IMG/VR virus record: IMGVR_UViG_3300029787_000005
Span: 32,001-96,000 of that record
DNA: 64,000 bases
Source of the DNA: a virus
Strand: one strand, 5' to 3'
Numbering within the stretch: the first letter of the stretch is position 1; the number at the start of each line of letters is the position of its first letter. Positions 38,783 through 54,757 of the stretch are shown here, in pieces. Under the pieces are notes generated by a model. The model did not search any database, was not told where the DNA came from, and worked only from the letters and a program-made list of their open reading frames with translations. The position numbers and the translations under genes are program-made.

Positions 38783-41265
38783 ATGTCTTACTCTAATCGA
38801 CTTTACGCAAAAGAATATGCTGGAGGGGATCGAACCTTTGAGGTTTCGTATACTGGTACTGGTACCAGGACTCCTTACATCGTATACACGAATGCGTTCC
38901 ATGGATTCTATAATGGATTCGAGGGAGTCTATACTAATAGTAGGACATCAACTCTTGCATGGCAAACAAACTTTGCTGGAGCATACACAGCTTCATATGA
39001 AGGCTTTGTAAACTATAATTCAGACGATACAGATACTTACTCAAAAGCATATACATCATTAAAGAACTTTACTGGTCAATTAGGATACAGAAAAGACTAT
39101 TCAGCCACAGGTAATCAACCAGATAATATCTGGTCTACAATGAACATCTTGGCTAACTACAGTGGTACATATAGTACTGATATTGCATACAGCCGTGTTG
39201 TTGGTTATGTTGGCGATGGAAACTATGATGGTGCAGCATATACAGCTACATGGGTTGGAGAGCTAGCATACACACCAACATATAGTGGATTTGTTGGCTT
39301 TGCTTCATATACAAAAACATATGAAGGTTCAACAACATATACCAAAACATACACTAAGACATATGTTGGTAACACAATATACCAAGCTGAGTGGCAGAGA
39401 GACTACTTAAAAGCATATGGTGGTACAGCAACCTATACAAAAGCGTATACTGTTGATGTAAACTACGACAAAGATTATTCTGCTGGTGCATGGGTAGGAG
39501 CAGACAGTTTCGTAGTTTATAGTAAAGACTATGGTGGTGCAATAACATATCTTGATTCTACTGGTGCTGGTTTCACAGGGTTTGTTAACTACACCAAGGG
39601 TTATCAGGCTACACAATTCTATACAAAGACATATGTTGGTACAGTAGATTATAACAAAAACTATGTTGGTGCTGCTGATTACACTAAGGCATACACTGGC
39701 CGTGCTTCATACATGGCTGAAGAGAACTTCAATAAAAACTATACAAAAGCATATACAACAGTAGCTGACTTTACAAGAGTGTGGTCTGGTGGCTTGTCAT
39801 ATCTTGGTAACGTAAACTATGATGGACTAACATACACAGGCACATATGCTGGTGATACAAACTATCAAACTCTTGTATACTATGTTGGAACATCTGACTA
39901 TGTTGGTACATATGAAGGTCTGGCAGACAATTCATATCTTGGTTCTGCATTTGTTGGTGTATATGAAAAAGATTACATTGGTAACTATTTTAGAATATAC
40001 ACTAAGATCTGGCAAAAAGATTATGTAACAGATTACAACAAGAACTATGTAAAAACTTATACTAAAAGATATGAAAAGTTATATGTTGGTGATTACGTTG
40101 CTGCATATCGGACATCATATCACAAAGATTATGATAAAGTCTATTCTAAAATATGGACAAAAGCATACGAAGTTCCATATACCAAGATTTATTCTAAAGA
40201 TTGGGAAAAGACATATACCAAAATCTATACAAAAGTTTGGACAAAAGACTACCTTGAAGATTATGGCAAAGCATGGCTTGGCATATACAACAAAGATTAT
40301 ATCAAACTATACAACAAAGTATATTCCAAAGATTGGGTTAAAGATTACGGAAAAGCATATGTAGGTCCAGTCTACTATGGAGGATTTGCATCCGGTTCTC
40401 AAACAACTGCATACAATAAAGTTTGGCAGAAAGCATATACAGCTGATTATACAAAAGATTGGGAAAAGGCATATGTCAAATCCTACGAAGGTAGCTTTGA
40501 TGCAACATATACTAAAAACTGGTTAACAGATTATGCAGCAGACTATTCCAAAGACTGGGTTAAAGCATATGCTAAAGACTATGATAAAGTTTGGAATGCT
40601 ACTTACGAAAAAGATTATGGCGCCGACTATACCAAGATATGGACTAAGAACTATGATGAGTCTTGGGCCAAGGAATGGGAAAAAGATTACGGCAAGACAT
40701 ATACAAAAATCTGGACTAAGATTTGGCAGAAAGATTATGTTACAGATTATGAAAAAGACTATGGTAAGACATATACCACTGACTATCTAAAAGACTATGT
40801 TGCAACATACAACAAAGATTATGTTGCAAACTATGATCAAATATATCTTAAAAATTGGTCTAAAGACTATGCAGAAGACTATACTAAGATATGGGAAAAA
40901 GCATACGATGCAGCTTATACTAAGATATGGGTTGGAACGTATGAGAAAAACTGGGTCAAAGCATACGAGAAAAATTATGTCAAGGCTTACATAAAAGCAT
41001 ATGGTAAGACTTGGGAAAAAGACTATGTCACAGATTATGATAAAGTCTATACAAAAGCATACAACAAAGGTTATGTCAAAGCATACACTGCTGCATATAC
41101 TAAGATCTGGAATAGAGATTGGGTCAAAGCATATGCTAAGGTTTGGCTTGGTGAGTATACAAAAATTTGGGATAGAAATTGGGAAAAAGACTATTCCAAG
41201 GCATATGAAAAAGCATGGGTTGGTGTATACAGCAAAGACTATGTTACATCTTACCATGTTCCATA
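38783..41265 (+). repeat. Tetrapeptide (12-nt period) [Y/W/F]-x-K-x array 1
   Basis: e.g. YTKIWQKDYVTDYNKNYVKTYTKR; the first ~380 aa are degenerate. Confidence 0.85.
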
Positions 41266-44200
41266 TGATAACTTTGACACCACTGTTCTATTACTAAATG
41301 CTGAAATACCAAATGCAACTGATGGTGATGTAGAGTTTATTGATGCATCTGATCAAGGTAACCATGTTACAACTGTACACGGTAGTGCTGCTAAGAGTAC
41401 AGATCAAAAGAAATTTGGTTCTGCAGCTATAGAAGTTCCAAGCAGTGGTTCTAGTGGTCTAACAATTAACTTTGCAGATGATGACTTCAACTTTCAAAAT
41501 GAAGACTTTACAATTGAGTTTTGGTTAAGAGCTCCTGGTACAAACAATGCTACAATCTTAGAAGCATACGATCATTCTGACAATAGTGTCAAATGGGCTA
41601 TCAGAGGTAACGATGCATCTAGTCCTAGTGAGATAATATTCTACGAAGGAACAACTGCTAGAGTTACAGCAGATGACAATAGTCCTTGGTCATCTGATAC
41701 ATTTAATCATGTTGCAATTGTAAGAATAAGCAACGCAATCAAAGTATACATTAATGGTACAGCTGATGCAGCAACGTATACCTCAGCTGCTAACTTAACT
41801 GGAGCCACTAGATTAGTAATTGGTAACAGAAGACAATTAGATGCATCTGTTGGTGGTTTCATTGATGACCTTAGAATAGACAAAACCAATGGTAAGTATA
41901 CTGGTAACTTTAATGTTACTGATAATGAGACAGCTCAAGAACAAATAAATTCTGCCGATTGGACATCATTCCAAAAAGCATATGTTAAAACATACAGTGC
42001 AGACTATACTAAGATCTGGGCAAAGGATTATGATAAGACATACGAAGGTGTCTTTGATGCAAGTTATGAAAAAGCATATGATAAAGTATATACAAAGGTA
42101 TGGGAAAAAGATTACGTCACAGATTATACCAAGGTCTGGAATAAGAACTGGGAAAAGGCATACGATAAAGTATACACTAAAGCCTGGGTTGGAGCGTATA
42201 CTAAAATATATGTAGGTCCAGTTTACTATGGTGGTTTCGCATCAGGATCACAGACAACAAACTATACCAAAGTTTGGGAAGGTAGCTTTGATGCTGACTA
42301 TACTAAAATTTGGAACAAAGATTATGAAAAAGCATACGATAAAATCTATACCAAAAACTGGGTAAAAGCATACGATAAGACATACACTAAAGACTGGGTC
42401 AAGGCATATGCTAAGACATGGACTGGTGTATATACTAAGATATGGACAAAAGATTACGATAAAGTTTATACTAAAATTTGGAACAAAGACTATGTAAAAG
42501 ATTACGTCAATGTTTGGGTTGGTGAATGGGTCAAGAATTGGGTTAAAGATTACGAAGGTTCTTTTGATGCAACATACAACAAAGTTTGGGTGAAAGCATA
42601 TTCCAAAGACTATGATAAAGTATATGAAGGTTCTTTTGATGCCACATATGAGAAGGCATACTCTAAAGACTATGATAAGGTCTATGAGACAGATTGGAAC
42701 AAAGAGTATGTTGAAACATATGAAAAAGACTATACTAAGATATGGACTAAGAACTGGGTCAAGAATTATGATACTGAATACGAAAAGCAGTATGATAAAG
42801 ATTGGGTTAAGGCATACGAGAAAGATTATGTAGCTGCATATGACAAGAACTGGGATGCAGTCTACAACAAAGATTGGGTCAAAGCCTACGATAAGGTTTA
42901 TACTAAGTTATGGGCTAAAGACTATGAAGCTGCTTATACCAAGATTTGGGATAGAGCTTGGGTCAAGAGTTACGATAAAAACTGGGTCAAGACTTATACC
43001 AAAGACTGGAACAAAGTATATGTTAAGACGTATACTAAAAATTGGGTTAAAAATTACGAGACAGATTACTCAACTGATTACGGTAAGACATATACAAAAG
43101 CATATGAAGCTCACTATACAAGAGACTTCCTCAAGTTATGGCAAGGTGAGTATACTAAGAACTATGACAAAGACTACTTAAAAGACTATGTCAAAACGTA
43201 TACTAAAAACTGGGTCAAAGATTACGAGACTGACTATACTCAAGAGTATCAAGGTACTTACACCAAAGCCTATGAAGGTATCTTTGCAACATTTATCAAA
43301 TACTATCTCGGTGCTAAAAACTGGGAAGGTAATATAAACTACACCAAGAACTATACTGGTCTAAGGTATTATGGTAAGGCTTGGGGTACTGAGTATGCAA
43401 AAACTTGGACTGGTAACTATACTCACGCATACGAAAAAGATTATGTTAAGAACTATGATGCTGACTATACAAAAGATTGGACCGCAACATATACCAAGGC
43501 ATATGTTAAGAACTATGATAAAGTATACACCAAAGTATGGGCTAAAGATTGGACCAAGGCTTATGTTGATGGGTCTGGTGATACCTATACTAAGGTATGG
43601 TCAGCAGATTATGCTGCAGACTATACTAAGGCTTGGAACAAAGATTATGAAAAAGCATACGATAAAGTTTGGAACAAAGTATATACCAAGTCTTGGGAAA
43701 AGGGTTACGTTAAGAATTATGATAAAGAGTATGTTGCTAACTATACTGGATCGTATGGAGGTGCAGCAGCTTATCTAAAAGCATATGCTGGAACAACTGA
43801 TTACTCAGGTCCTGTTAACTATACTAAGACTTGGGAAGGACCATACATAGCCAGCTTTGCACCATCGTATACTGGTGATAGTGACTTTACACAAAGATAT
43901 ACTGGTGCACTAACAAGGAATGTTCCTTACGAAGGTACAACAAGTTTTGTAGGTCCTTCTGGTGGTCAGCTTGATTCTAACCTTGCTGGTCAACCTAAAC
44001 TTCATATTATGCAAGACAATACTTGGAAGAATGTCAAGCAATTGTTTGTACATGCATCTGGTCAGTGGAAGAAAGTCAAGTACTTAAATACTAAACAAGG
44101 TGATACTTGGAAGCTAGCATACATTGGTTACGATACAACTGATATCTTCTTAGATGAAGGTGAAGTTCTTACTAGCGATAGTGATGCAGGTTCAGCTCGA

Positions 44201-47200
44201 GGTCACGATCTTCATATGGGTAAGATCACTTACTATGTAAATGACTTCAACTTAAAATCATATCTTGAAGCTAAAGGTAAGACACCAGATACTGTTCCAC
44301 AATTAGTGAACATATTTGTTGGTGTAAAAGATGACTATACTAAGAACTTTGTATTTGGTTCTACAGCAAATAATATTCCTGCTGTAAACTTAAATATGGA
44401 TTCTGTTACAGCTAATGTTTCAGGAGATACACAAGCAGAGATCAAACACCTTGTACGCATTGTAAACTACACAACTGGATTCATCGTAGGTAAAGGTGGA
44501 GATGGTGGTGATGCAAATGGAAGCACAAGAGGTCTAGGCAGCCATGGTAGTGATGGTGGTCATGCTATTGAGTCTGGAGCCAATGTACATCTGTTTGTAG
44601 AAAACTATGGTACTATTGGTGGTGGCGGTGGTGGTGGAGGTGCATCTGGTATCTCTGATCCATACAGTAAAGAATCTGGTGTGTACACAACTACATATCT
44701 TGGTGACACATATCATGGTTCTGGAGTACTTACTGAGTATGGTGCTACGTGGAGTAAAACATATACAAAAGACTGGATTAAAAATTACGTTAAAGTATAT
44801 GTTGGCGACTACACTAAAGTATATGAAAAAGATTATTCTGCAGACTATGTTAAGGCATACGTTGGTGTATATAATAAAGACTGGGAAAAGGTATACGTTA
44901 AAGAATATGCAGCAGACTACACTAAAGTATATGCTAAGGATTGGGAAAAGACATATACTAAAGCATACGAAGGCTCATTTGATGCAACTTATACTAAGAC
45001 ATATACCAAGATATGGGAAGGTAATTATACCAAAACATATACTAAAAACTATGATAAAGTTTACACAAAAGTATGGGCCAAAGACTTCAGCACAGTATAT
45101 CAAGGTGAGTATACAAAAGTATGGTCTAAAGGATATGCAAGAGATTTTGAAGCAGCATTCAATGGTGGCGGTACAGACTATCTAAGAATCTTCTCAAAAG
45201 ATTACGCCAAAGGATATGAGGTTGTATACACCGGTGACTACACTAAAGTGTGGTCTACAGACTTCAGCGCTGACTATACTAAATCTTGGGAAAAGGCATA
45301 CGATAAAGAGTATGTTGGAGCATACACTAAAGATTATAATAAAGACTATGCAAAGGCTTGGGTTGGAGTATATAATAAAGATTGGGTCAAGGCTTATTCC
45401 AAAGATTATACTAAAGTGTGGACTGGGAACTATCTTAAAGACTATGCTAAGGTATGGGCAAAAGCATATGAAGGATCTTTTGATGGTACTTGGACTAAGG
45501 TTTGGACTAAAACATACACTAAGATCTGGCAAGGTGCATACGAGAAAGATTATCTCAAAGCATACCAGAAAGTATACAACAAACAATATGATGCAAGTTA
45601 TACTGAAGCATACCAGAAAGCATACACTGGACAATTGTATTGGATTGATGAAGACGTAGCATCTTATACTGGAGCTGCTGGAAATTTCACATCTGCTCGA
45701 GCATATGGAGATGGTGAAGTTAGCTTTATCAAAGACTTTAACAAAGAATATGTTTCTGGATTTACTGGCCAGACAGCTTACACTGCAGGAGTACCAGGAT
45801 CAAGAGGTGAGCTTGGATCATTCTCACAAGCAGAGAACTATGATGTTGATTATACTAAACTATATGCATCTCCATATACTAAAGCATACGATAAGATATA
45901 TGCTAAGGCTTGGGATTCATCTGCTGCTAACTATACAGTTAACTGGGAGAAGGCTTGGGTAGAAGATTGGGCTTCAAACTGGGCTGGATCTTTCCATGGT
46001 GGTCAGCAAGATGCAATGACACCAACAAACTTTATGAAGACTTATCTTCCAGACTCTGGTGTTGCTCTATATGCAAAAGAATATACAAATACAAGATTTG
46101 GTCGTACATATGGTGGATATGAATCTGCTGGATTCATTACATCAGTTGGATCATATGCAAAAGCATACACCAAAACATATACTAAGATATGGACTAAATC
46201 ATATACCAAGGCTTGGGAAAAAACATATACTAAAGTATACGAGAAAGATTACAACAAAGCATACGATGGTGCTGCATTTGCTAAAGAATGGACTAAGACA
46301 TATACCAAAACATATGATGGTACAATATATGGTGGCGTATATGAAAAAACATATCAAAAAGCATATGACAAAGTATGGCAAGGAAGTTATGTTGATGAGT
46401 GGGGTGGAGCATATGATAAAGAATATGAAGCAGATTATCTTGCAACATATGTTAAGACATACATTGGTATCTATACCAAGACATACGAGAGTGCAGACGA
46501 TGCATATGTAGGACCTACTTATGATGGTGCAACATATACTAAGAGTTGGGAAAAAGCATACTCTGTTGATTACTCAACTGATTGGGAAAAAGCATACACC
46601 AAGTCATACGACAAAGACTATGAAAAAGCATACGAAGCTGCTTATACAAAAGCATGGTCCAAAGACTATAATAAAGATTATGAAAAAGACTACGAAGGAA
46701 CTTTCTCTAAGAGTTATGTTAAGAACTACGATCGTGTATATGTTGGTGATTATACTAAGACTTACGATAAAGATTATTCCAAAGACTATGCTAAGGTATG
46801 GAACAGCTCTGCTGCAACATATACAAAAGTATATACTAAGAGTTATGACAAAACATACTCAAGTGATTGGACTAAGTCATATGAGAAGGATTATGTAAAA
46901 GATTACACTGGTGCATTTACCAAAGCGTATACTAAAACATATACAAAAGATTACTCAGCTGATTACGCTAAAGAATGGACAAAAGCATATACCAAAACAT
47001 ATGATAAAGATTACACTAAAGCGTATACAAAAATCTATACAAAAGATTATGTCAAAAACTACGATGCAGATTATGTTGGATCATACACTGCAACATTCTC
47101 AAGATCATACGATGCAGAATACGAAGGATCATATGATAAAGAGTATGAAAAAGCATGGACAAAAATATGGACTAAGGGTTTTGGTTCTACTACATACATT

Positions 47201-48262
47201 GGTGACTACTCAGCAACATATCTTGCTGACTTTACAAAACAATATCAAAAAGACTTTGGTAGCTCATACAGTAGAGACTATAATGCTGAATATGAAGCAT
47301 CATATACAGGAACATATGTTGCAACATATGTCAAGACATACTCAAAAGATTGGGTCAAGGCATATGAAGCAGACTACAACAAAGACTATACAGCAGATTA
47401 TGCTACAACATGGATAAAAGAATATCTTGGTAACTATAGCAGACCTGGTGGTGTGTATGGTGCATTCCTCAAAGAATACACAGATACATTTGTTAGAGTA
47501 TACAACACCAAAGGTTCATTCATTGGTACATATCTCAAAACATATACCAAGAACTATGATCAATTGTATCAAGGTGTTTATACAAAAGCATATCAAAAGG
47601 CATATGAAGGTACATTTAACCAAGACTATCTAGTAATATACAACAAAGATTATGCTAAGGCATATGTTGGACCAGTCTTCTACGGTGGTTTTGCTTCTGG
47701 CTCACAGACAACAACATACAACAAAGCATATACTAAAGGTTATGAGAAGAACTGGATTAAGACTTACACAGGTATCTTCACTAAAGATTATGAGAAGGCA
47801 TACACTGGTGACTATACTAAGTCTTGGACAAAAGACTATGTTAAGACATTTGAAGATACAGCATATTCAAGAGAAGTAAACATTGCATATCTTGGATTTG
47901 CAGAGACAACTGGTGTAGCTGGTTCTGGTGGAGCTGGTTGGAACATTGGTGAAGAAGGTACTACTGAAGCTGATCACAGTCATATGTTATTCCTACCACA
48001 AGAAGGTAATCTAATCAATGGTGGTAGTCGTGGTGTTCCTGATTGGGAATATGGTAACTCAAGAGCCATTGGTGGTAAAGGTGGAGACTTAGGTAATGTT
48101 GGTACCGGTGGTGGTGAAAGGTTCCTAAGAAAATCAAGACTTGGAAGATCTGGTGATGGTGGTAAACCTGGTGCAGCCATTAAAGGTTATGACTCTGATT
48201 ATGTTAACATGATCTACCAGGGTAATATATTAGGTGACCCCAACTACATGTTCCAAGGTTAA
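38783..48262 (+). CDS. Giant [Y/W]xKx-repeat fibre/adhesin with a LamG domain and a split gp38-like polyglycine domain (3159 aa)
   Basis: Uninterrupted ORF with three repeat arrays, a LamG/ConA-like domain at about 41270-41900, and Gly-rich adhesin halves at about 43990-44660 and 47880-48262. Confidence 0.8.
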   Translation: MSYSNRLYAKEYAGGDRTFEVSYTGTGTRTPYIVYTNAFHGFYNGFEGVYTNSRTSTLAWQTNFAGAYTASYEGFVNYNSDDTDTYSKAYTSLKNFTGQLGYRKDYSATGNQPDNIWSTMNILANYSGTYSTDIAYSRVVGYVGDGNYDGAAYTATWVGELAYTPTYSGFVGFASYTKTYEGSTTYTKTYTKTYVGNTIYQAEWQRDYLKAYGGTATYTKAYTVDVNYDKDYSAGAWVGADSFVVYSKDYGGAITYLDSTGAGFTGFVNYTKGYQATQFYTKTYVGTVDYNKNYVGAADYTKAYTGRASYMAEENFNKNYTKAYTTVADFTRVWSGGLSYLGNVNYDGLTYTGTYAGDTNYQTLVYYVGTSDYVGTYEGLADNSYLGSAFVGVYEKDYIGNYFRIYTKIWQKDYVTDYNKNYVKTYTKRYEKLYVGDYVAAYRTSYHKDYDKVYSKIWTKAYEVPYTKIYSKDWEKTYTKIYTKVWTKDYLEDYGKAWLGIYNKDYIKLYNKVYSKDWVKDYGKAYVGPVYYGGFASGSQTTAYNKVWQKAYTADYTKDWEKAYVKSYEGSFDATYTKNWLTDYAADYSKDWVKAYAKDYDKVWNATYEKDYGADYTKIWTKNYDESWAKEWEKDYGKTYTKIWTKIWQKDYVTDYEKDYGKTYTTDYLKDYVATYNKDYVANYDQIYLKNWSKDYAEDYTKIWEKAYDAAYTKIWVGTYEKNWVKAYEKNYVKAYIKAYGKTWEKDYVTDYDKVYTKAYNKGYVKAYTAAYTKIWNRDWVKAYAKVWLGEYTKIWDRNWEKDYSKAYEKAWVGVYSKDYVTSYHVPYDNFDTTVLLLNAEIPNATDGDVEFIDASDQGNHVTTVHGSAAKSTDQKKFGSAAIEVPSSGSSGLTINFADDDFNFQNEDFTIEFWLRAPGTNNATILEAYDHSDNSVKWAIRGNDASSPSEIIFYEGTTARVTADDNSPWSSDTFNHVAIVRISNAIKVYINGTADAATYTSAANLTGATRLVIGNRRQLDASVGGFIDDLRIDKTNGKYTGNFNVTDNETAQEQINSADWTSFQKAYVKTYSADYTKIWAKDYDKTYEGVFDASYEKAYDKVYTKVWEKDYVTDYTKVWNKNWEKAYDKVYTKAWVGAYTKIYVGPVYYGGFASGSQTTNYTKVWEGSFDADYTKIWNKDYEKAYDKIYTKNWVKAYDKTYTKDWVKAYAKTWTGVYTKIWTKDYDKVYTKIWNKDYVKDYVNVWVGEWVKNWVKDYEGSFDATYNKVWVKAYSKDYDKVYEGSFDATYEKAYSKDYDKVYETDWNKEYVETYEKDYTKIWTKNWVKNYDTEYEKQYDKDWVKAYEKDYVAAYDKNWDAVYNKDWVKAYDKVYTKLWAKDYEAAYTKIWDRAWVKSYDKNWVKTYTKDWNKVYVKTYTKNWVKNYETDYSTDYGKTYTKAYEAHYTRDFLKLWQGEYTKNYDKDYLKDYVKTYTKNWVKDYETDYTQEYQGTYTKAYEGIFATFIKYYLGAKNWEGNINYTKNYTGLRYYGKAWGTEYAKTWTGNYTHAYEKDYVKNYDADYTKDWTATYTKAYVKNYDKVYTKVWAKDWTKAYVDGSGDTYTKVWSADYAADYTKAWNKDYEKAYDKVWNKVYTKSWEKGYVKNYDKEYVANYTGSYGGAAAYLKAYAGTTDYSGPVNYTKTWEGPYIASFAPSYTGDSDFTQRYTGALTRNVPYEGTTSFVGPSGGQLDSNLAGQPKLHIMQDNTWKNVKQLFVHASGQWKKVKYLNTKQGDTWKLAYIGYDTTDIFLDEGEVLTSDSDAGSARGHDLHMGKITYYVNDFNLKSYLEAKGKTPDTVPQLVNIFVGVKDDYTKNFVFGSTANNIPAVNLNMDSVTANVSGDTQAEIKHLVRIVNYTTGFIVGKGGDGGDANGSTRGLGSHGSDGGHAIESGANVHLFVENYGTIGGGGGGGGASGISDPYSKESGVYTTTYLGDTYHGSGVLTEYGATWSKTYTKDWIKNYVKVYVGDYTKVYEKDYSADYVKAYVGVYNKDWEKVYVKEYAADYTKVYAKDWEKTYTKAYEGSFDATYTKTYTKIWEGNYTKTYTKNYDKVYTKVWAKDFSTVYQGEYTKVWSKGYARDFEAAFNGGGTDYLRIFSKDYAKGYEVVYTGDYTKVWSTDFSADYTKSWEKAYDKEYVGAYTKDYNKDYAKAWVGVYNKDWVKAYSKDYTKVWTGNYLKDYAKVWAKAYEGSFDGTWTKVWTKTYTKIWQGAYEKDYLKAYQKVYNKQYDASYTEAYQKAYTGQLYWIDEDVASYTGAAGNFTSARAYGDGEVSFIKDFNKEYVSGFTGQTAYTAGVPGSRGELGSFSQAENYDVDYTKLYASPYTKAYDKIYAKAWDSSAANYTVNWEKAWVEDWASNWAGSFHGGQQDAMTPTNFMKTYLPDSGVALYAKEYTNTRFGRTYGGYESAGFITSVGSYAKAYTKTYTKIWTKSYTKAWEKTYTKVYEKDYNKAYDGAAFAKEWTKTYTKTYDGTIYGGVYEKTYQKAYDKVWQGSYVDEWGGAYDKEYEADYLATYVKTYIGIYTKTYESADDAYVGPTYDGATYTKSWEKAYSVDYSTDWEKAYTKSYDKDYEKAYEAAYTKAWSKDYNKDYEKDYEGTFSKSYVKNYDRVYVGDYTKTYDKDYSKDYAKVWNSSAATYTKVYTKSYDKTYSSDWTKSYEKDYVKDYTGAFTKAYTKTYTKDYSADYAKEWTKAYTKTYDKDYTKAYTKIYTKDYVKNYDADYVGSYTATFSRSYDAEYEGSYDKEYEKAWTKIWTKGFGSTTYIGDYSATYLADFTKQYQKDFGSSYSRDYNAEYEASYTGTYVATYVKTYSKDWVKAYEADYNKDYTADYATTWIKEYLGNYSRPGGVYGAFLKEYTDTFVRVYNTKGSFIGTYLKTYTKNYDQLYQGVYTKAYQKAYEGTFNQDYLVIYNKDYAKAYVGPVFYGGFASGSQTTTYNKAYTKGYEKNWIKTYTGIFTKDYEKAYTGDYTKSWTKDYVKTFEDTAYSREVNIAYLGFAETTGVAGSGGAGWNIGEEGTTEADHSHMLFLPQEGNLINGGSRGVPDWEYGNSRAIGGKGGDLGNVGTGGGERFLRKSRLGRSGDGGKPGAAIKGYDSDYVNMIYQGNILGDPNYMFQG
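41960..43950 (+). repeat. Tetrapeptide array 2
   Basis: e.g. YTKNWVKAYDKTYTKDWVKAY. Confidence 0.85.
44660..47880 (+). repeat. Tetrapeptide array 3 (inserted in the polyglycine domain)
   Basis: e.g. YTKVYEKDYSADYVKAY; degenerate middle at about 45630-46150. Confidence 0.85.
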
Positions 48263-48268
48263 GGTGTC

Positions 48269-51200
48269 ATGGGACGGCCCCTTAAAATTAAAACCTCTGG
48301 AGGTGGAACATGGATAGCTCTACAAGAGATACCAGATACAGAATTAACCCACATAGTCCATCAAGTTCTTACAGAGTTTGCATCTAGTACTTCTGGTACT
48401 GGAACACTTTCTGTTGGAACAGATACTGGAACAAGTATTGGTACATTTACAGATACCAATTCATCAACAAGTTCCACAACTACTGTTTATCAAAATTTAA
48501 CGTCCGTGTCAGAATCAAGTATGGTCCGCCCCGTGGAGTTCGGTTCAACTATTCAAGAGGCATCTGATGCAAACATTAATTCGTTCATCATTAGCACTGC
48601 TCTTTCTAATCTTGTGTCTAACGGAATTGGGTCTTATGTCCTGTCAACAACAAATCCTGACTCAGATAGATACACTGCTATAACACCAGCGCTAACTGAT
48701 AACACAACGAGTACTTCTACAAGTTATAATTTATACAGAAAAACATCTGTTGCAACTGCACCAGCTCAAGTAATACCATTAAAGGTTACTGGTAGTACAG
48801 TTAAACAGATGACTAATACAGAGATCAAAACTCTCACAGCAAGAGTAAGAAATAGAATCATTGACACAGGAATTGGTAAGTATGCTATTCAAGCAGCTGC
48901 ACCATCTACTGGTACATGGGTTGATCAAGGAACAATACTTGATACAAAGATCATTGATTCTGATAGCGATTCCTATTCAAGGACTTACTTAAAAACATAC
49001 ACTAAAGCATTTGCAAAGAATTATCTCAAGACATACACTGGAACATTTGTTGGACAGTATGTTGGTACATATGAGAAAGATTATCAAAAAGCATATACCA
49101 GTGCAATAAACTATGAGAAGATATACACTACAGTTTGGACTAAGTCATATAGTAAAGACTTTATTGGTGTGTATCAAGGTGTAGTCAACTTCAATAGAAC
49201 ATTTGAAGGTGACTTTGCAAAAGATTGGATCAAGTCTTACAGTAAAGCATACACTGGCTTTATACTATATGCAAAAGATTATGATCAAACATTCACAGGA
49301 AACTTTCATAAAGACTATCTCAAGGGATATGTTGGTGAGAGAAACTATCTAGCAGAGTATGCAAGAGATTGGAACAAAACATACACCAAGTTATATACTG
49401 GTGAATATCAAAAGACAGAAAACTTTGAAGTTAATTATGAAGGTGAAAGAGTTGTAAACTACAATGCAACCTTTGCTGCTTTCTACGAAGGTGAGATAAC
49501 TTCAGCTGCAACATATGTCAAAGCATATGTAAAAGATTTTGGAAATGATTATGCTGCTTCATTCTCAGCTGCTGCAAACTATTCTGGTACATTCAACAGA
49601 ACATACACGAAAGATTATGGTAGAGCATGGACTGTTGAGTTTTCAGGTCCTGGTGTATTCCAATCTGAATGGACTAAAAACTATACAGTAAACTATCAAA
49701 AGGCTTATGCAAAGCTCTGGACAAAAGATTGGGTAAAGCAATATATTGTTCAGTATGAAAAGTTATATGAAAAGAGTTGGTTGGAAGATTGGGTCAAGGC
49801 TTACGAGAAAGACTATGAAGCAGCATATGATAAAGATTGGATTAAAAACTGGGTCAAATCATATTCAAAAGATTGGAATAAAGATTATTCTGCTGACTAT
49901 CTAAAAGACTATGGTAAGACATATACTACTGATTACAACAAAGATTATATCACCAACTACGAGAAAACATATGTGAAGGCATACGTTGGTGTATACAATA
50001 AAGACTATATCAAAGCATACGAGAAAGATTGGGTTACAGACTATACTCACAATTGGGTCAAAGCATATCTAAAGGTATGGAACAAAGACTATGTCAAAGG
50101 TTATGAGATTGCATGGAACAAAGTATGGTTAGGTATCTATACTAAAGACTGGTCAAAAGACTATGAAAAAATATATGTAAAGAATTGGGTAAAATCATAT
50201 GATGCGGACTACGCAAAACAATGGCTTGGTGAGTATGAAAAAAATTATGTCAAGTCTTATGACAAAGATTATGTTAAGGCATACGATCGCATCTGGTCAC
50301 AAACGTACACAAAAATCTACGATGCAGCATACACAAAGATCTGGGCCAAGGACTGGGAAAAAGATTACGTAAAGATATATCAAAAGAACTACGTTAAAAC
50401 ATATAGTGCTGCATATGAAGGATCGTTTGATGAAAACTATAACAAAGATTATGTAGCTGCATATACAAAGATATGGAACAAGACTTATACTAAGATCTGG
50501 CAGAAAGACTATGTCACAGATTACACAAAGACATACACAACAGATTATAATAAAGACTATACAAAAATTTATGCTAAGGCTTGGGTTGGTGCATATACAA
50601 AAATATATGTTGGGCCTGTGTACTACGGTGGTTTTGCATCTGGATCTCAAACTACAAACTACACAAAAGTTTGGGAAGGTAGCTTTGGTGCCAACTATAC
50701 AAAGGTATGGGTAAAGACATATACCAAAGATTGGAACAAAGCATATACCAAGAACTGGATAAAAAACTATGATGCTGATTATGTAAAAGCATATGATAAG
50801 ATATACGAAAAGGCTTGGGTCAAGACTTATACTAAAGCATATGTTGGTGTTTACAATAAGGATTGGAACAAAGATTACGTTAAGGATTATTCCAAAAATT
50901 GGGTTAAAGCATATACTAAGAATTACGATAAAGTATATAACAAAGATTGGTCTAAAGATTGGAACGTTGATTACGTTGCAGTGTATCTAAAGAATTGGGT
51001 TAAGACATACGACAAAGATTATGTTAAAGCATATGAAGGTGCCTTTGATGCAACCTACACAAAGATATGGAATAAAGATTATCTAAAAGACTATGCTAAG
51101 TTGTGGGCTAAGGATTATGATAAAGAGTATGAAGGATCTTTTGATGCTGCATATGTTAAACAATATGCAAAGAACTGGGTAAAGGCTTATGAGGCTAGTT

Positions 51201-52360
51201 ACGAGAAAGACTACGAAGCAGCATATACAAAGAACTGGGTTACACAATACGAGAAGAACTATGTCAAATCATACGAAGGATCATTTGATGCTGACTGGGT
51301 AAAGGCTTATACAAAAAATTGGGTTAAGACATATACAACTGATTGGAACAAAACTTATACCAAGACTTATACTAAGTTGTGGACCAAGACATATACAACT
51401 GAGTATGAAAAGGACTATGTTAAAAATTATGTTGCAAGATATCTTACAAACTGGGTAAAGACTTATGAAAAAGCATACGAGAAGTCCTACGCAAAAACTT
51501 ATGAAAGAATATGGACAAAAATTTGGGAGAAAGCATATACTCGCAACTACTCCGCCACATACCTCAAAGACTATACCAAGGTATGGTCACGGGATTATGA
51601 AGGCAATTATACTGGTTTCATCAATTACACTGGACAATTTATTTCAAACTACCTCAAAGACTACGTTGGACAAGTAACAAAAACATTTTCTGGCTTTATT
51701 AATTACAATAAACTGTTTACTAAGAGCTGGGGTCGGATGTATAATAAAGAATATGTCAACGAATGGGCTAAGGTTCAAAACTTCCAAAAAGACTTTGAAA
51801 AAGATTTTGCTAAAGAATACGTAGGTGTGTATACTAAAACATACTCATCTATTCATACGTATGAAGGAACAAGAACTGTAGACTATCAGAAAACATATAC
51901 AGCAGATTATACAAAAGAGTATGCAGCAGACATAACCTATGTCAAGACTTATACAGCTACACGCTCTCAAGGATTTGAAGGAGCATATGAAAAAACATAT
52001 AGTAGTGAGACAGACTATGAAAAAGACTACGATAAAGAATATGAAGCTGTATATAATAGTAACTTTGGTAGCATTAACTTTTCTGCTACACTCAATTTTG
52101 AAAAGGCTTGGACTAAGAACTTTGCAAAATTTTATGATGCAGAATATGCGAAGAACTACGAAGGATATATAGACTACACACAAGACTACAATAAGGCTTA
52201 TGAAGGAACTTTCACAGGATACTTTGAGACAGACTTCATAAAAACTTATTCAATAGATTATTCAAACGACTATATTAAGAGCTATATAAATACATATGTA
52301 GATACAACCAACTATGTGGGAACCGCATCTACACTTAAATTATGGGTGAGGGTTGCTTAA
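48269..52360 (+). CDS. Second [Y/W]xKx-repeat structural protein (1363 aa)
   Basis: About 235-aa Ser/Thr-rich N-terminal domain, about 1110-aa repeat array, and a short C-terminal strand TLKLWVRVA. Confidence 0.8.
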   Translation: MGRPLKIKTSGGGTWIALQEIPDTELTHIVHQVLTEFASSTSGTGTLSVGTDTGTSIGTFTDTNSSTSSTTTVYQNLTSVSESSMVRPVEFGSTIQEASDANINSFIISTALSNLVSNGIGSYVLSTTNPDSDRYTAITPALTDNTTSTSTSYNLYRKTSVATAPAQVIPLKVTGSTVKQMTNTEIKTLTARVRNRIIDTGIGKYAIQAAAPSTGTWVDQGTILDTKIIDSDSDSYSRTYLKTYTKAFAKNYLKTYTGTFVGQYVGTYEKDYQKAYTSAINYEKIYTTVWTKSYSKDFIGVYQGVVNFNRTFEGDFAKDWIKSYSKAYTGFILYAKDYDQTFTGNFHKDYLKGYVGERNYLAEYARDWNKTYTKLYTGEYQKTENFEVNYEGERVVNYNATFAAFYEGEITSAATYVKAYVKDFGNDYAASFSAAANYSGTFNRTYTKDYGRAWTVEFSGPGVFQSEWTKNYTVNYQKAYAKLWTKDWVKQYIVQYEKLYEKSWLEDWVKAYEKDYEAAYDKDWIKNWVKSYSKDWNKDYSADYLKDYGKTYTTDYNKDYITNYEKTYVKAYVGVYNKDYIKAYEKDWVTDYTHNWVKAYLKVWNKDYVKGYEIAWNKVWLGIYTKDWSKDYEKIYVKNWVKSYDADYAKQWLGEYEKNYVKSYDKDYVKAYDRIWSQTYTKIYDAAYTKIWAKDWEKDYVKIYQKNYVKTYSAAYEGSFDENYNKDYVAAYTKIWNKTYTKIWQKDYVTDYTKTYTTDYNKDYTKIYAKAWVGAYTKIYVGPVYYGGFASGSQTTNYTKVWEGSFGANYTKVWVKTYTKDWNKAYTKNWIKNYDADYVKAYDKIYEKAWVKTYTKAYVGVYNKDWNKDYVKDYSKNWVKAYTKNYDKVYNKDWSKDWNVDYVAVYLKNWVKTYDKDYVKAYEGAFDATYTKIWNKDYLKDYAKLWAKDYDKEYEGSFDAAYVKQYAKNWVKAYEASYEKDYEAAYTKNWVTQYEKNYVKSYEGSFDADWVKAYTKNWVKTYTTDWNKTYTKTYTKLWTKTYTTEYEKDYVKNYVARYLTNWVKTYEKAYEKSYAKTYERIWTKIWEKAYTRNYSATYLKDYTKVWSRDYEGNYTGFINYTGQFISNYLKDYVGQVTKTFSGFINYNKLFTKSWGRMYNKEYVNEWAKVQNFQKDFEKDFAKEYVGVYTKTYSSIHTYEGTRTVDYQKTYTADYTKEYAADITYVKTYTATRSQGFEGAYEKTYSSETDYEKDYDKEYEAVYNSNFGSINFSATLNFEKAWTKNFAKFYDAEYAKNYEGYIDYTQDYNKAYEGTFTGYFETDFIKTYSIDYSNDYIKSYINTYVDTTNYVGTASTLKLWVRVA
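48974..52315 (+). repeat. Tetrapeptide array 4, symmetric about a central motif
   Basis: aa 236-1349; degenerate flanks, strict core, and YVGPVYYGGFASGSQTTNY at aa 780-798. Confidence 0.85.
52285..52292 (+). promoter_or_regulatory. T4-type late promoter upstream of the hypothetical/GT/hydroxylase trio
   Basis: Exact TATAAATA about 79 nt upstream of ATG 52371. Confidence 0.55.
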
Positions 52361-52370
52361 GGAGTATATA

Positions 52371-53168
52371 ATGAGTAGTGAAGAAGTAATGGATATTGAT
52401 CCTAGAGCCCATGGCTTTAAGATTGATACGGCCGGTAAGGTCGCTAGCTCAGAAGCAGAGTTAGCAAACAAAAGAATAGATGCTAAAATTCCAGAGTTTG
52501 AAGAAGAAATAGATCATGACATTCCTCATGACAAGGAAGAAGTGGTTGAAGAAGTTTACAAAGAAAGTCTCAGTAAAGATCGTTCAGACCGACTAGGGTT
52601 GGTCAGACCTCCAGATAAGAATATGAAAACATCATGGATGCGTGATCCTGTCGAGGCAGATGATATGGAGGAGATCAAATTGGCAGAAGAAAAAGCTAGG
52701 GAACCTGAATGGCCTTTTGGTGATGGTGAACCAATATATGCATTCTTTAGTAATGATGCAAGGACAGTACTTACATTCTTTCTAAGAATGCCAGATGATA
52801 GAGTTGAGAATCATACTATAGACTCAGCTCCTATGCATGAAGCTGCATGGCATCATCTACGAAAAATCTTCACAGAAGAAATGTTGAATAAGAATACTAG
52901 TCGAGAGATCAATAAGATTCATAGACTGCGTTCCAAAGAAGAAGATGAAGAAAAAGAACGTGAAAGTAAGATGAAGCAAGAAGGGTTGTTCGGTGCTAAA
53001 GTTGAGGCATTTGAACTGGAAGTTGTTAGTAAGTCTACTAATAGAGATTTGAAATCAGCTATCCGTAAATCAAAATCTACTATGGAAGTTATTGCCACTG
53101 TAGGTGCTCTCATTGCTCTTGATCATTTGGAGTCTAAAAAAGAAGATGTCCCAGCAGCAGCCGAATAA
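52371..53168 (+). CDS. Hypothetical acidic protein (possible fibre assembly factor)
   Basis: ORF track 52353..53168; the likely start is 52371 after AAGGAG. C-terminal LFGAKVEAFE...K..IRKSK. Function inferred from position only. Confidence 0.6.
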   Translation: MSSEEVMDIDPRAHGFKIDTAGKVASSEAELANKRIDAKIPEFEEEIDHDIPHDKEEVVEEVYKESLSKDRSDRLGLVRPPDKNMKTSWMRDPVEADDMEEIKLAEEKAREPEWPFGDGEPIYAFFSNDARTVLTFFLRMPDDRVENHTIDSAPMHEAAWHHLRKIFTEEMLNKNTSREINKIHRLRSKEEDEEKERESKMKQEGLFGAKVEAFELEVVSKSTNRDLKSAIRKSKSTMEVIATVGALIALDHLESKKEDVPAAAE

Positions 53169-54033
53169 TGGTTTTCTGTACGTAGGATCTCTGACTAAAC
53201 CATATTATGATGCTGCTGTAATGTCAGCAGAGTCCATTAAGGACTACTGGCCAGAAGCTAAGATAATGTTGTTTACTCATGAAGATTGGGTACAAGAACC
53301 AAGAGACTCTAGAATCTTTGATAAAATTGTTACTGGAGTCCCAGCACATTGTCGAGCTAAGCTATGGGCATTAAATCAAACTATATTTGATAAGACATGC
53401 TATATGGATGCTGACACATATTGTGAGCATGAAGACATAAAGTATATCTTTGATGATCTACCTGATAACTATGATATGGCTATGACTACAAATAGACCAT
53501 ATAATGCTAAGGTTGTCTACTTTAAGAAAGATAGAGAGCTTACTCATTATGAAGAAGAAGACAAGAAGTTAATCTGGGAAGGTGGGGACCCAGATGGCAA
53601 ACCATTGTATGCAGTGCACTCTTGGGAAGAGAATGCCAAGAATGAAGTATACAGAATGTTATGGCATTGTGGAATGTTTATATATAATAATAAGCCGCAT
53701 ACGCTAAAAATGTTACATGCATGGTATACTAATTATAGGGAACAGATTGAAAACAAAAAGACATGGCACGAAAGATTTGAACATCCAAGATCATTGTGGT
53801 TCTGGGATACGTATGCTTTCTGGCGAACAAACTTTTATACAAATTATGAAGTCAAGATTCGTGAGATCCATCCAAAGTGGAACTTTGTAAATGGATACAG
53901 AGAATTTGAATTAAGTGAAAAACATCCAAAAGTTATTCACCACTACACAGTACCAGCTCGACCACAGGATGAAGGATTAATAGATGACCCCAATATATCA
54001 AATACAATCGGAAATTTTGACATACTTAAATGA
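53146..54033 (+). CDS. Nucleotide-diphospho-sugar glycosyltransferase (GT-A)
   Basis: GFLYV, SAESIKDY, RAKLWAL..T.FDKT.YMDADT (DxD), HCGMFIY, WNFV and IHHY motifs. Probable start 53146 (ORF track 53104). Confidence 0.78.
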   Translation: MSQQQPNNGFLYVGSLTKPYYDAAVMSAESIKDYWPEAKIMLFTHEDWVQEPRDSRIFDKIVTGVPAHCRAKLWALNQTIFDKTCYMDADTYCEHEDIKYIFDDLPDNYDMAMTTNRPYNAKVVYFKKDRELTHYEEEDKKLIWEGGDPDGKPLYAVHSWEENAKNEVYRMLWHCGMFIYNNKPHTLKMLHAWYTNYREQIENKKTWHERFEHPRSLWFWDTYAFWRTNFYTNYEVKIREIHPKWNFVNGYREFELSEKHPKVIHHYTVPARPQDEGLIDDPNISNTIGNFDILK

Positions 54034-54757
54034 GTGGCAAGAGTTCATATGGGGACTAGAGCTCCATGAAAACTTTGGTAAAGATAAGAAGTTTAAAGCT
54101 CGAGGTGGCAAGTTCTTTAACGAGAACCGATCAGAGTATGCAAGTTCCGTAGAGTGTTTGATGTCTCTTAAACATGATGAGCATGATGGCTTTCCACCAG
54201 ACTCATATGGATATGACTTTAATCAGATACCACAATGGATCAAGTCAGGATCTATTAGTAAAGATATAGGTGAGCCATTAGCTGAGAAGAGTAAATGGTT
54301 GGATGATAATCTTGGTGCTTATCTTGGATATAGGTTCTGTGCATTAAAGATGTTCTATCCTCCAGAAGGATATATTTCTTGGCATACTAACTGGAACGTA
54401 CCAAGCTACAACATTTTATTTACATACAATCCTACTGGTGATGGTTTCTGGAGACATATTAATCCAACTGGATCAGAGTCACATAGACCTAACATAGGAG
54501 AGAATGAAGAGAACGTAGTTACTATTCCTGACAAGCCAGGTTGGTCATGTAAGGTTGGTTACTATGGACGTAAAGAAGAACATGACAGGATTGTTTGGCA
54601 TACAGCTTATACTAAGGAGCCAAGAATCACATTAGGTTATGTTATCTTTGAAGAAAGTATTTGGAAGAATACAGTTGAAGAGATTGCTGGTAAAGAATTA
54701 GTATGGCCTCTAGCTCCATATGAACCAGAGGCCGTACAAACATCCTTTACTAAATAA
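53984..54757 (+). CDS. Putative Fe(II)/2OG-type hydroxylase (cupin fold)
   Basis: YPPEGYISWHTN, distal WHTA and PRITLGY. HxN replaces the canonical HxD, so the call is tentative. Confidence 0.55.
   Translation: MTPIYQIQSEILTYLNEWQEFIWGLELHENFGKDKKFKARGGKFFNENRSEYASSVECLMSLKHDEHDGFPPDSYGYDFNQIPQWIKSGSISKDIGEPLAEKSKWLDDNLGAYLGYRFCALKMFYPPEGYISWHTNWNVPSYNILFTYNPTGDGFWRHINPTGSESHRPNIGENEENVVTIPDKPGWSCKVGYYGRKEEHDRIVWHTAYTKEPRITLGYVIFEESIWKNTVEEIAGKELVWPLAPYEPEAVQTSFTK

What the first reader, a model, noticed from the sequence alone, without database searches (positions are those of the whole stretch)
48974..52315. The 1363-aa protein looks like one enormous beta-hairpin: conserved turn motif at the array midpoint
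Seen: the array spans aa 236-1349 (midpoint about aa 792). The clearest break in the 4-residue register, YVGPVYYGGFASGSQTTNY, is at aa 780-798, so the midpoint falls in its ASGSQ. The array is also compositionally mirror-like: degenerate F/G/N-rich repeats at both ends (YTGFILY... versus YTGFINY...) and strict W/Y-K repeats in the core. A short C-terminal strand (TLKLWVRVA) would return to the N-terminal domain. Inference: two antiparallel arms of about 550 residues. At about 0.33 nm per beta residue this is a ribbon of roughly 180 nm with the motif at the tip.
Basis: partly seen in the sequence, partly recalled or inferred. Interest (0 to 1): 0.85.

Follow-up and report, generated by a model that had tools for sequence, protein, structure and literature searches.

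The report
Giant fold-back hairpin phage fibre
A 1363-residue protein of an uncultured marine T4-like phage seems to be a thin fibre made of one enormously long hairpin, whose two roughly 550-residue halves run side by side in opposite directions from a small base domain; I found no description of such a fibre.

Summary
ORF 48269..52360 (1363 aa) has a period-4 aromatic array at aa 236-1343. Two unbroken 317-aa arms (464-780, 798-1114) flank the 17-aa motif.

Four signals in the sequence itself show that the arms pair antiparallel:
- All 5 Gly rungs of the N arm mirror Gly rungs of the C arm (P 2.7e-7).
- The +2 stutters of the flanks mirror at i+j = 1578/1579.
- Hydrophobic pairs on the non-aromatic face peak only at i+j = 1580 (21 against 9.8±2.3).
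- Trp-Trp is avoided at exactly the two diagonal positions which that register predicts (1 against 12.1±2.5).

The protein belongs to an unannotated viral family (420 representative clusters). The family has a three-repeat base domain, a variable array and a conserved C-terminal strand. A YYGG-type tip lies within 5% of the midpoint in 16 of 25 relatives.

AlphaFold2 on a 466-aa relative gives a confident base plus two mirrored 22-24-residue strands. On the window's own segment it was uninformative.

The fold-back topology is well supported. Beta conformation along the whole length, monomer state, the ~180 nm length and function remain inferred. The scan held only first-reader notes on this stretch.

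The parts
48269..52360 (+). Whole gene, 1363 aa plus stop: base domain, fold-back array, C-terminal strand
   Evidence: ORF list. Full-length orthologues at 71-95% best-segment identity in three IMG/VR contigs.
48269..48973 (+). Base domain, aa 1-235: three homologous repeats of about 80 aa, possibly a beta-prism-like fold. Repeat 3 is interrupted by the array.
   Evidence: Profile search finds 420 representative clusters. hhalign on relatives: repeat 2 against repeat 3, probability 99.7%, E 1.5e-25; repeat 1 against repeat 2, 98.2%. AlphaFold2 pLDDT above 90 in relative P0141. VIA-align to beta-prism domains gives Z 5.6-7.3, which is middling.
48974..49657 (+). Proximal N arm, aa 236-463: 21-aa in-register blocks starting every 26 aa, with a +2 stutter between blocks; richer in F and G
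   Evidence: Register analysis. Boundaries mirror those of the C flank at i+j = 1578/1579.
49658..50608 (+). Distal N arm, aa 464-780: 317 aa, 79 uninterrupted [YWF]-x-K-x tetrads, with Gly rungs at tetrads 1, 15, 31, 39 and 51 counted from the tip
50609..50659 (+). Tip motif, aa 781-797 (VGPVYYGGFASGSQTTN): the chain reversal
   Evidence: Only register break in the central 651 aa. Three more copies in the neighbouring protein. YYGG-type motifs near the midpoint of relatives.
50660..51610 (+). Distal C arm, aa 798-1114: 317 aa, 79 tetrads, with Gly rungs at tetrads 1, 15, 31, 39, 51 and 78
51611..52297 (+). Proximal C arm, aa 1115-1343: mirror image of the proximal N arm (blocks every 26 aa), with a one-residue slip near aa 1270-1277
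52298..52357 (+). C-terminal segment, aa 1344-1363, ending in LKLWVRVA: the closing strand of base repeat 3
   Evidence: By my regex, 124 of the 151 proteins held (150 listed representatives plus P0001) carry both the N anchor and the C-terminal L[WYQF]x[RK]xx ending. Aligns with the end of repeat 2 (probability 57%, E 1e-4, 11 columns). Confident strand 459-464 in the P0141 model.
38783..48262 (+). Neighbouring 3159-aa protein with the same tetrad repeats. It has three copies of the tip motif (aa 528, 1145, 2963) and a fourth hairpin with turn FNGGGTDY (aa 2126-2133). It also has a Laminin_G_3 domain and a GP38-like Gly-rich domain.

Best explanation
The protein is a virion fibre of an uncultured marine T4-like myovirus, built as a single intramolecular fold-back.

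Base. A conserved base of about 235 aa consists of three homologous repeats and is possibly beta-prism-like. It is closed by the last 8-10 residues of the chain.

Stalk. The terminal beta-hairpin of the third repeat has been stretched to 1108 residues. Its two arms of about 550 residues run antiparallel in register i+j = about 1580. In this register each Tyr or Trp of one arm faces a Lys (or, at five rungs, a Gly) of the other. One face is therefore an aromatic/lysine checkerboard. The other face carries Val-Val or Ile-Val pairs among polar and acidic residues.

Tip. The conserved YYGG motif is the turn at the far end.

Roles. The conserved base most likely anchors the fibre on the tail or baseplate. 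The hairpin is a long thin stalk that carries the tip outwards towards the host surface.

Shown: mirror symmetry, contact register, family architecture, and beta strands at the stalk base in a relative. Inferred: beta ribbon along the whole length (about 180 nm at 0.33 nm per residue), the anchoring role of the base, and host contact.
For: Anatomy
- Arms of 317 and 317 aa around the motif, and mirrored stutter boundaries.
- The best of all possible mirror centres is 789.0.

Contact covariation
- Gly rungs at tetrads 1, 15, 31, 39 and 51 in both arms, always [VL]G on one arm opposite EGS-FD on the other (P 2.7e-7).
- Hydrophobic-hydrophobic pairs on the non-aromatic face: 21 at i+j = 1580, against 2-14 at the 32 other registers scanned and 9.8±2.3 after tetrad shuffling (P 1e-4).
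- Trp-Trp at the two diagonal positions predicted by that register: 1 against 12.1±2.5 (P 2e-5).
- Replicated in the neighbour's hairpins. Trp-Trp: 0 against 3.9, 0 against 3.3 and 1 against 3.5. Hydrophobic pairs in the motif-2 hairpin: 7 against 2.9 (P 0.003).

Family
- 420 clusters share the N domain.
- 124 of the 151 proteins held (150 listed representatives plus P0001) carry both anchors; complete members range from 273 to 1601 aa.
- A [YF][YF]GG motif lies within 5% of the span from the midpoint in 16 of the 25 proteins with a single match; a uniform spread would give about 2.5.
- The largest non-repeat gap is centred within 5% in 26 of 73, against an expected 7.
- The array sits where repeat 2 has a loop of about 8 residues.
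- AlphaFold2 of P0141 gives strands 237-258 and 430-453. These are the mirror images of each other about that protein's own centre (sum 688). The C-terminal strand and the base have pLDDT above 90.

Fibre role
- The gene follows baseplate and fibre genes.
- The same order recurs in 2 of the 4 distant loci examined (L019, L026).
- Relative P0127 carries a Laminin_G_3 domain (aa 651-772, about 7% of the span N-terminal of the midpoint) near the middle of its array.
Against: - AlphaFold2 on the window's own aa 640-940 gave long helices at pLDDT 36, which supports nothing.
- The middle of the P0141 hairpin (262-428) is below pLDDT 50.
- The midpoint rule is not universal. 47 of 73 relatives have their largest gap more than 5% off centre. 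9 of 25 have the motif more than 5% off centre; at least two of these have a misplaced N anchor.
- Orthologue L009 has 89 extra residues at the base of the N arm with no counterpart in the C arm.
- In the 3159-aa neighbour, arms around two motif copies are 121/285 and 81/341.
- The 3347-aa member in phage C48C1 is clearly multi-hairpin.
- The aromatic-mirror score is biased towards the centre for perfectly periodic arrays.
- An F-F covariation test in 14 Gly-type relatives gave no clear signal.
- I recall no free two-stranded ribbon of anything like this length; its stability alone is doubtful.
- There are no experimental data of any kind.
Confidence: 0.75

Rival explanations
1. The chain folds back in the same way, but the fibre is an oligomer. 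For example, three hairpins could form a six-stranded fibre as in the T4 gp37 needle, or ribbons could stack basic face on acidic face, possibly together with the 3159-aa neighbour.
For: Phage fibres are usually trimers (general knowledge). One face is Lys/aromatic and the other rich in Asp, Glu and Val, which would favour stacking. The neighbour has unmatched arm lengths that need partners. The neighbour's gene ends 6 bases before this one starts.
Against: The base is itself three homologous repeats, so one chain already supplies a pseudo-threefold unit, and only one of its three hairpins is extended. All covariation found is explained by the two arms of one chain.
Confidence: 0.13
2. There is no fold-back. 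Two fully extended chains lie antiparallel as a domain-swapped dimer, so that residue i of one chain pairs with residue 1580-i of the other. Each base domain is closed by the partner's C-terminal strand.
For: It would give the same i+j = constant covariation.
Against: A Gly-rich, Pro-containing motif sits exactly at the centre and is conserved across the family. Relatives with spans of only 53-80 aa between the anchors cannot reach a partner this way. P0127 has a globular Laminin_G_3 domain near the centre. AlphaFold2 closes the hairpin within one chain in P0141.
Confidence: 0.05
3. The two arms form an antiparallel alpha-helical hairpin (a coiled-coil-like rod) rather than beta strands.
For: The AlphaFold2 model of aa 640-940 is helix-turn-helix with the motif as the turn.
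Against: That model has pLDDT 36. The period is exactly 4, not 3.5-3.67. The core is 25% Tyr/Trp/Phe plus about 20% Thr/Val/Ile. In relatives the same position 3 is Gly in most tetrads, which is hard to reconcile with a helix. AlphaFold2 gives strands at the stalk base of P0141.
Confidence: 0.04
4. The array is a parallel beta-solenoid or beta-helix, and the mirror pattern comes from repeat composition alone.
For: The flanks have a 26-residue super-period that could be a coil length. A direct offset of 182 collects 5 Gly coincidences across the whole protein.
Against: The 317-aa arms have no period other than 4. The Gly, hydrophobic and Trp signals are specific to one antiparallel register and fall away at neighbouring registers. 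By my hand count, no direct offset between the core arms matches more than 2 Gly rungs.
Confidence: 0.02

Closest known systems
Receptor-binding needle of the T4 long tail fibre protein gp37
   Same: A phage fibre in which the chain runs out to a tip and back, so that the tip lies in the middle of the segment and the return strand pairs antiparallel with the outgoing one. This description of the fold is recalled from Bartual et al. 2010. From PMC6957217 I read only passages on the needle domain and its seven iron atoms.
   Different: gp37 is an intertwined trimer held by His-coordinated iron, and its needle is far shorter than the ~550 residues per arm here (recalled). This array has 3 His in 1108 residues, no Pfam match, a strict 4-residue repeat, arms of about 550 residues, and a base made from one chain.
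Single-layer beta-sheets (Borrelia OspA and its extended engineered forms) and tryptophan-zipper hairpins
   Same: Beta ribbons without a conventional hydrophobic core, stabilised by cross-strand side-chain packing, with aromatic residues interleaved across strands (recalled, not tested here).
   Different: Those span tens of residues. This would be about 550 rungs, with an aromatic/Lys checkerboard deduced.
Fold-back stalk of streptococcal antigen I/II adhesins
   Same: N- and C-terminal halves of a repeat region pair antiparallel to form a long stalk. A lectin-like domain sits at the far end and both chain ends sit at the base (recalled).
   Different: That stalk is an alpha helix wound with a polyproline-II helix and is about 50 nm long. 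It is a cell-wall adhesin, not a phage protein.
MABP / MACPF C-terminal beta-prism domains (8b6v_A, 2qp2_A, 3tow_A)
   Same: Best structural matches of the base domain of relative P0141: Z 7.3, 6.8 and 5.6, with 109-115 residues aligned at rmsd 3.5-3.9. The internal three-fold repeat fits a prism.
   Different: Z is in the range the tool calls common. Sequence identity is 9-10%. Foldseek found nothing at E 1e-3 or better in the PDB or BFVD. None of these has an extended hairpin.
gp38-type polyglycine adhesins (T2, S16)
   Same: The neighbouring 3159-aa protein has a Pfam GP38 match (E 1.1e-7 on the whole protein, 1.2e-9 on the sub-region). That places this gene pair in a host-recognition module.
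   Different: The 1363-aa protein has no GP38 match.

Membership tests
Unnamed viral family defined here (three-repeat base, array, C-terminal LWxRxA strand) | N-terminal base domain homologous across members | tested here: met
   A profile of aa 1-240 finds 420 clusters at E 1e-3 or better, and 79 at 1e-30 or better.
Unnamed viral family defined here (three-repeat base, array, C-terminal LWxRxA strand) | Chain ends in a conserved strand of the form L-[WYQF]-x-[RK]-x-x | tested here: met
   The window protein ends in LKLWVRVA. By my regex, 124 of the 151 proteins held carry both anchors.
Unnamed viral family defined here (three-repeat base, array, C-terminal LWxRxA strand) | Aromatic period-4 array with a Gly-rich tip near its midpoint | tested here: met
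   Window: centre at 789. Relatives: 16 of 25 within 5% of the span.
T4 gp37-type fibre tip | Sequence similarity to gp37-type fibre families | tested here: not met
   0 Pfam families at E 0.01 or better. The only PHROG hit is phrog_15773, of unknown function, at E 1.5e-4.
T4 gp37-type fibre tip | Repeated His-x-His metal sites along the needle | tested here: not met
   3 His in the 1108-aa array.
T4 gp37-type fibre tip | Homotrimer | not testable with these tools
   Needs a mass measurement or a structure.
Parallel beta-solenoid / beta-helix fibres | Coil-length period with direct i to i+n correspondence | tested here: not met
   The core arms have no period other than 4. The covariation is antiparallel only.
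Collagen-like / polyproline-II fibres | Gly at every third residue and high Pro content | tested here: not met
   Period 4, Gly 4.4%, 2 Pro in 1108 aa.
Alpha-helical coiled-coil hairpin | Heptad-type period and helix-favouring composition | tested here: not met
   Exact period of 4. The composition is rich in Tyr/Trp/Thr/Val. The helical AlphaFold2 model has pLDDT 36 and is not evidence either way.
MABP-like beta-prism (base domain only) | Three-sheet prism fold | tested here: inconclusive
   VIA-align Z 5.6-7.3 on the P0141 model. There are three internal repeats. Foldseek found no match.

The most novel reading that the evidence does not exclude
A free-standing, single-chain, two-stranded beta ribbon of about 550 rungs (roughly 180 nm long and 1 nm thick), held together by an aromatic/lysine checkerboard. 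That would be by far the longest beta-hairpin known and a new class of protein filament. The family would follow a stem-loop grammar like that of RNA helices. Stutters and Gly rungs are compensated on the opposite arm. Tips can be bare turns or lectin-like domains. Large members are branched sets of such hairpins.
Probability: 0.4. Interest if true: 0.92.

Novelty: new variant of a known kind. Interest (0 to 1): 0.82.

Why it matters
- Structure. Known phage fibres are trimeric beta-helices, beta-spirals or coiled coils. A fibre made by stretching one beta-hairpin of a small domain to more than 1000 residues would be a different way to build a long, thin, cheap filament.
- Annotation. It would explain a class of giant low-complexity ORFs in marine phage genomes that are now labelled hypothetical. 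The family has at least 420 clusters at 50% identity and no Pfam or PHROG name.
- Design. The sequence gives explicit rules: register, Gly rungs, paired stutters and avoidance of adjacent Trp. These could be tested on short constructs and used to design beta-ribbon materials.
- Ecology. Such fibres may set the reach and host recognition of abundant uncultured ocean myoviruses.

Tried and rejected
Structure prediction and fold search
- AlphaFold2 on window aa 640-940, with 5 orthologue and paralogue rows: pLDDT 36.2, all helix. Discarded as uninformative.
- Complex prediction with three copies of the 316-aa relative P0041: the verdict was 'no answer', so it is reported only here.
- Foldseek of the P0141 model against the PDB and BFVD: nothing at E 1e-3 or better.

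Searches for annotation
- Megablast of the gene against GenBank phages: no match.
- tblastn of the window N domain and of P0041: no match.
- The whole protein and P0151 hit only phage C48C1.
- Pfam and PHROGs on the family: nothing beyond a weak PHROG of unknown function.
- ESM Atlas: only unnamed viral clusters.

Other tests
- Length variants inside 90% clusters, as a test of paired indels: the differences were only alternative start codons.
- The aromatic-mirror centre across 80 relatives lay within 10 aa of the midpoint in 30 of 80, and in 16 of the 24 with z of 6 or more. I treat this as weak, because perfectly periodic arrays are biased towards the centre.
- F-F covariation in 14 Gly-type relatives: no clear signal.
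- A search for a local side hairpin in L009's extra 89 aa: inconclusive.
- Pfam on 8 long relatives in full: 0 families. Sub-regions then gave Laminin_G_3 for P0127 and only sub-threshold hits for P0070.
- Downstream ORFs 52353-54757: no Pfam, PHROG or PDB-sequence match.

Literature
- Searches found no description of this family or of 4-residue aromatic repeat fibres. I saw only the listings, plus passages of PMC6957217.
- Supplementary files were not consulted.

Full report
**Setting.** The window is bases 32001-96000 of a 128,318-base IMG/VR virus record, which CheckV estimates to be 73% complete. Genes at 18.7-31 kb match T4-type baseplate and tail families: tail tube cap, hub/lysozyme and three wedge subunits. 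Next come a 2189-aa DUF4815/phrog_358 protein, a 219-aa fibre protein with a Peptidase_S74 chaperone domain, a 3159-aa repeat protein (38783..48262) and the target gene 48269..52360 (1363 aa). The wedge protein is only about 35% identical to those of the top-listed cultured phages, so this looks like an uncultured lineage.

**Checking the observation.** I marked every Y, W and F and followed the period-4 register.
- Residues 1-235 are not repetitive.
- From 236 to 458 the register holds in blocks of 21 residues that start every 26 residues. Each block is shifted by +2 relative to the previous one.
- From 464 to 780 there are 317 residues without a single break.
- The 17 residues VGPVYYGGFASGSQTTN follow.
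- From 798 to 1114 there are again exactly 317 residues without a break.
- From 1120 to 1343 the 26-residue block pattern returns.

Of 18 block boundaries, 11 pair to a sum of exactly 1578 and 4 to 1579. The other 3 are off by 4 because an end aromatic is missing. An unbiased scan over all mirror centres gives 789.0 as the best (r 0.78, 556 pairs). The corrections are that the array ends at 1343, and that the motif is the only break in the central 651 residues rather than in the whole array.

**Do the arms touch?** I used the 79 tetrads of each arm as replicates.

1. Gly rungs. Position 3 of a tetrad is Lys in 54 and 55 of 79 tetrads. It is Gly at tetrads 1, 15, 31, 39 and 51 counted from the tip in the N arm, and at 1, 15, 31, 39, 51 and 78 in the C arm. 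The chance of all five coinciding is 2.7e-7. In each case one arm reads [VL]-G and the other E-G-S followed by F-D. A parallel superposition matches at most 2 (my hand count). For fairness, over the whole protein one direct offset (182) also collects 5 coincidences.
2. Hydrophobic pairs. On the non-aromatic face I counted pairs in which both residues are V, I, L or M, for every register from 1546 to 1610. The count is 21 at i+j = 1580, 2 and 3 at 1578 and 1576, and 4-14 elsewhere. Shuffling the C-arm tetrads gives 9.8±2.3 (P 1e-4).
3. Trp-Trp avoidance. Register 1580 puts each aromatic opposite a Lys, with two aromatics of the other arm as diagonal neighbours. Each arm has 22 Trp among its 80 aromatic positions. 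Trp-Trp at those two diagonal positions occurs once, against 12.1±2.5 expected (P 2e-5). At the next positions outwards it is enriched, 10 and 10 against about 6.

These signals are independent of one another and all point to one antiparallel register.

**Replication in the neighbour.** The 3159-aa protein carries the motif three times (aa 528, 1145, 2963). It also has a fourth hairpin around FNGGGTDY (2126-2133), with arms of 141 and 149 aa.
- Gly rungs coincide in 1 of 4, 2 of 2 and 2 of 2 N-arm rungs for the three motif hairpins. For the fourth hairpin 5 coincide, and a sixth C-arm Gly faces an Ala tetrad.
- Trp-Trp at the diagonal positions is 0 against 3.9, 0 against 3.3 and 1 against 3.5.
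- Hydrophobic pairs peak at the same relative register (7 against 2.9, P 0.003, for motif 2).

However, the arms around motifs 1 and 2 are very unequal (121/285 and 81/341). I cannot say what the excess strands pair with.

**The family.** A profile of the N domain found 420 representative clusters. By my regex, 124 of the 151 proteins held (150 listed representatives plus P0001) have both the N anchor and a C-terminal L-[WYQF]-x-[RK]-x-x ending. Complete members range from 273 to 1601 aa. A 3347-aa member, annotated as hypothetical, is in phage C48C1 (Kyanoviridae). What varies is the middle.

hhalign on an alignment of 61 short members shows that the base is three homologous repeats: repeat 2 against repeat 3 gives probability 99.7% and E 1.5e-25, and repeat 1 against repeat 2 gives 98.2%. 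The C-terminal strand aligns with the last strand of repeat 2 (11 columns, E 1e-4). The array therefore sits where repeat 2 has a loop of about 8 residues. It is an extended hairpin of the third repeat.

Short relatives show the same turn, for example YTLYYGGFANSSY, YVLYYGGRNYGSY and YTRFFGGSNYGTY. Of the 25 proteins with exactly one [YF][YF]GG in the span, 16 have it within 5% and 14 within 2% of the anchor midpoint. Their spans run from 80 to 744 aa, and a uniform spread would give about 2.5 and 1. The largest non-repeat gap is centred within 5% in 26 of 73, against an expected 7. The failures are mostly long proteins with several irregular or globular inserts. Two of the motif failures have a misplaced N anchor.

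The three full-length orthologues keep 317/317. That is inherited and so not independent evidence. One of them, L009, has 89 extra residues at the base of the N arm only.

**Structure prediction.** AlphaFold2 with 95 family rows on P0141 (466 aa) gave pLDDT above 90 for the base. It gave strands 237-258 and 430-453 and the C-terminal strand 459-464, and less than 50 for 262-428. The mirror sum of that protein is 688, so 237-258 should face 430-451, which is what the model's strand limits show. DSSP strands of 22-24 residues need a partner of the same length, and each is the only candidate for the other.

The base weakly resembles beta-prism domains (Z 5.6-7.3). Foldseek found nothing. The window's own aa 640-940 folded as low-confidence helices (pLDDT 36). 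I give that no weight. The period is exactly 4, the composition is Tyr/Trp/Thr/Val-rich, and in relatives position 3 is mostly Gly.

**Mechanism.** The best reading is a base that anchors on the tail, a two-stranded antiparallel ribbon as a stalk, and the YYGG turn as the tip.

In favour of a fibre with an outward-facing tip:
- The gene lies in the baseplate and fibre module.
- The order phrog_358 protein, then fibre-like genes, then a family member recurs in L019 and L026. The other two distant loci examined show a tail-fibre hit (L021) and a structural-protein hit (L022) upstream.
- The base is the conserved part and the middle the variable part.
- Relative P0127 has a Laminin_G_3 domain near the centre of its array (E 8.3e-9).
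- The neighbour combines the same hairpins with Laminin_G_3 and GP38-like adhesin domains.

The length of about 180 nm is simple arithmetic (554 residues at 0.33 nm each) and is untested. Whether the ribbon stands alone, bundles with copies of itself or packs against the neighbour is open.

**Novelty.** There is no Pfam or named PHROG family. The only source names seen were 'hypothetical protein'. Only unnamed viral clusters appear in the ESM Atlas. One GenBank phage of 50,697 carries a member. Five literature searches found no description (listings only, plus passages of PMC6957217).

The nearest known principle is the fold-back needle of T4 gp37. That needle is a trimer held by iron and far shorter (structure recalled; iron sites seen in PMC6957217). 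I class the finding as a new variant of a known kind (phage fibre). There is a substantial chance that it is a new kind of protein filament.

Noticed in passing
window 38783-48262 (+): The 3159-aa neighbour holds at least four hairpins of the same type. The arms around motif copies 1 and 2 are very unequal (121/285 and 81/341), so about 160 and 260 residues of strand have no identified partner. It also has Laminin_G_3 (E 1.2e-17) at about aa 898-1032 and GP38-like Gly-rich sequence at aa 1868-1959. Its last 136 aa gave no Pfam hit.
   Followed up: partly
window 48269-48973 (+); alignment A4: The base domain is an internal triplication. Each repeat reads roughly PLK...L-EM-D-E helix, G-x-Y-x-L, AP-x-GTW, D, hairpin, T-x-x-LW-x-[KR]-T. 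Only the third repeat's hairpin is expanded.
   Followed up: yes
L027 5722-15498 and L028 1-453 (GenBank OQ984149.1, phage C48C1, Kyanoviridae): A 3347-aa 'hypothetical protein' is a family member, with the same base and an ending in TLYVRVA. It has about 1500 aa of arrays, then at least five globular inserts separated by arrays of about 60-360 aa (four of them about 60-80 aa). It looks like a branched or beaded version, not a single hairpin.
   Followed up: partly
L021 3443-7279: In this 1278-aa member, zones of different repeat type follow each other in the order A (xRQF type), B (PGPNY type), C, tip, C', A', B'. If the arms pair, A-type strand would face B-type strand rather than its own kind.
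   Followed up: no
L009 6001-10356: This orthologue (71% best-segment identity) has 89 extra array residues at the very base of the N arm with no counterpart in the C arm. A local side hairpin is possible but was not shown.
   Followed up: partly
window 52353-54757 (+): Three co-oriented ORFs (271, 309 and 257 aa) directly downstream have no Pfam, PHROG or PDB-sequence match at the thresholds used.
   Followed up: partly
window 55170-56159 (-): A periplasmic phosphate-binding-protein-like gene (Pfam PBP_like_2, E 4.9e-42). This type of host-derived gene is common in marine phages (the last point is recalled).
   Followed up: partly
window 38783-52360: Tandem Repeats Finder sees only short, weak DNA repeats (periods of 15-36, 2-3 copies). 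The protein periodicity is therefore maintained by selection and is not due to recent DNA duplication.
   Followed up: yes
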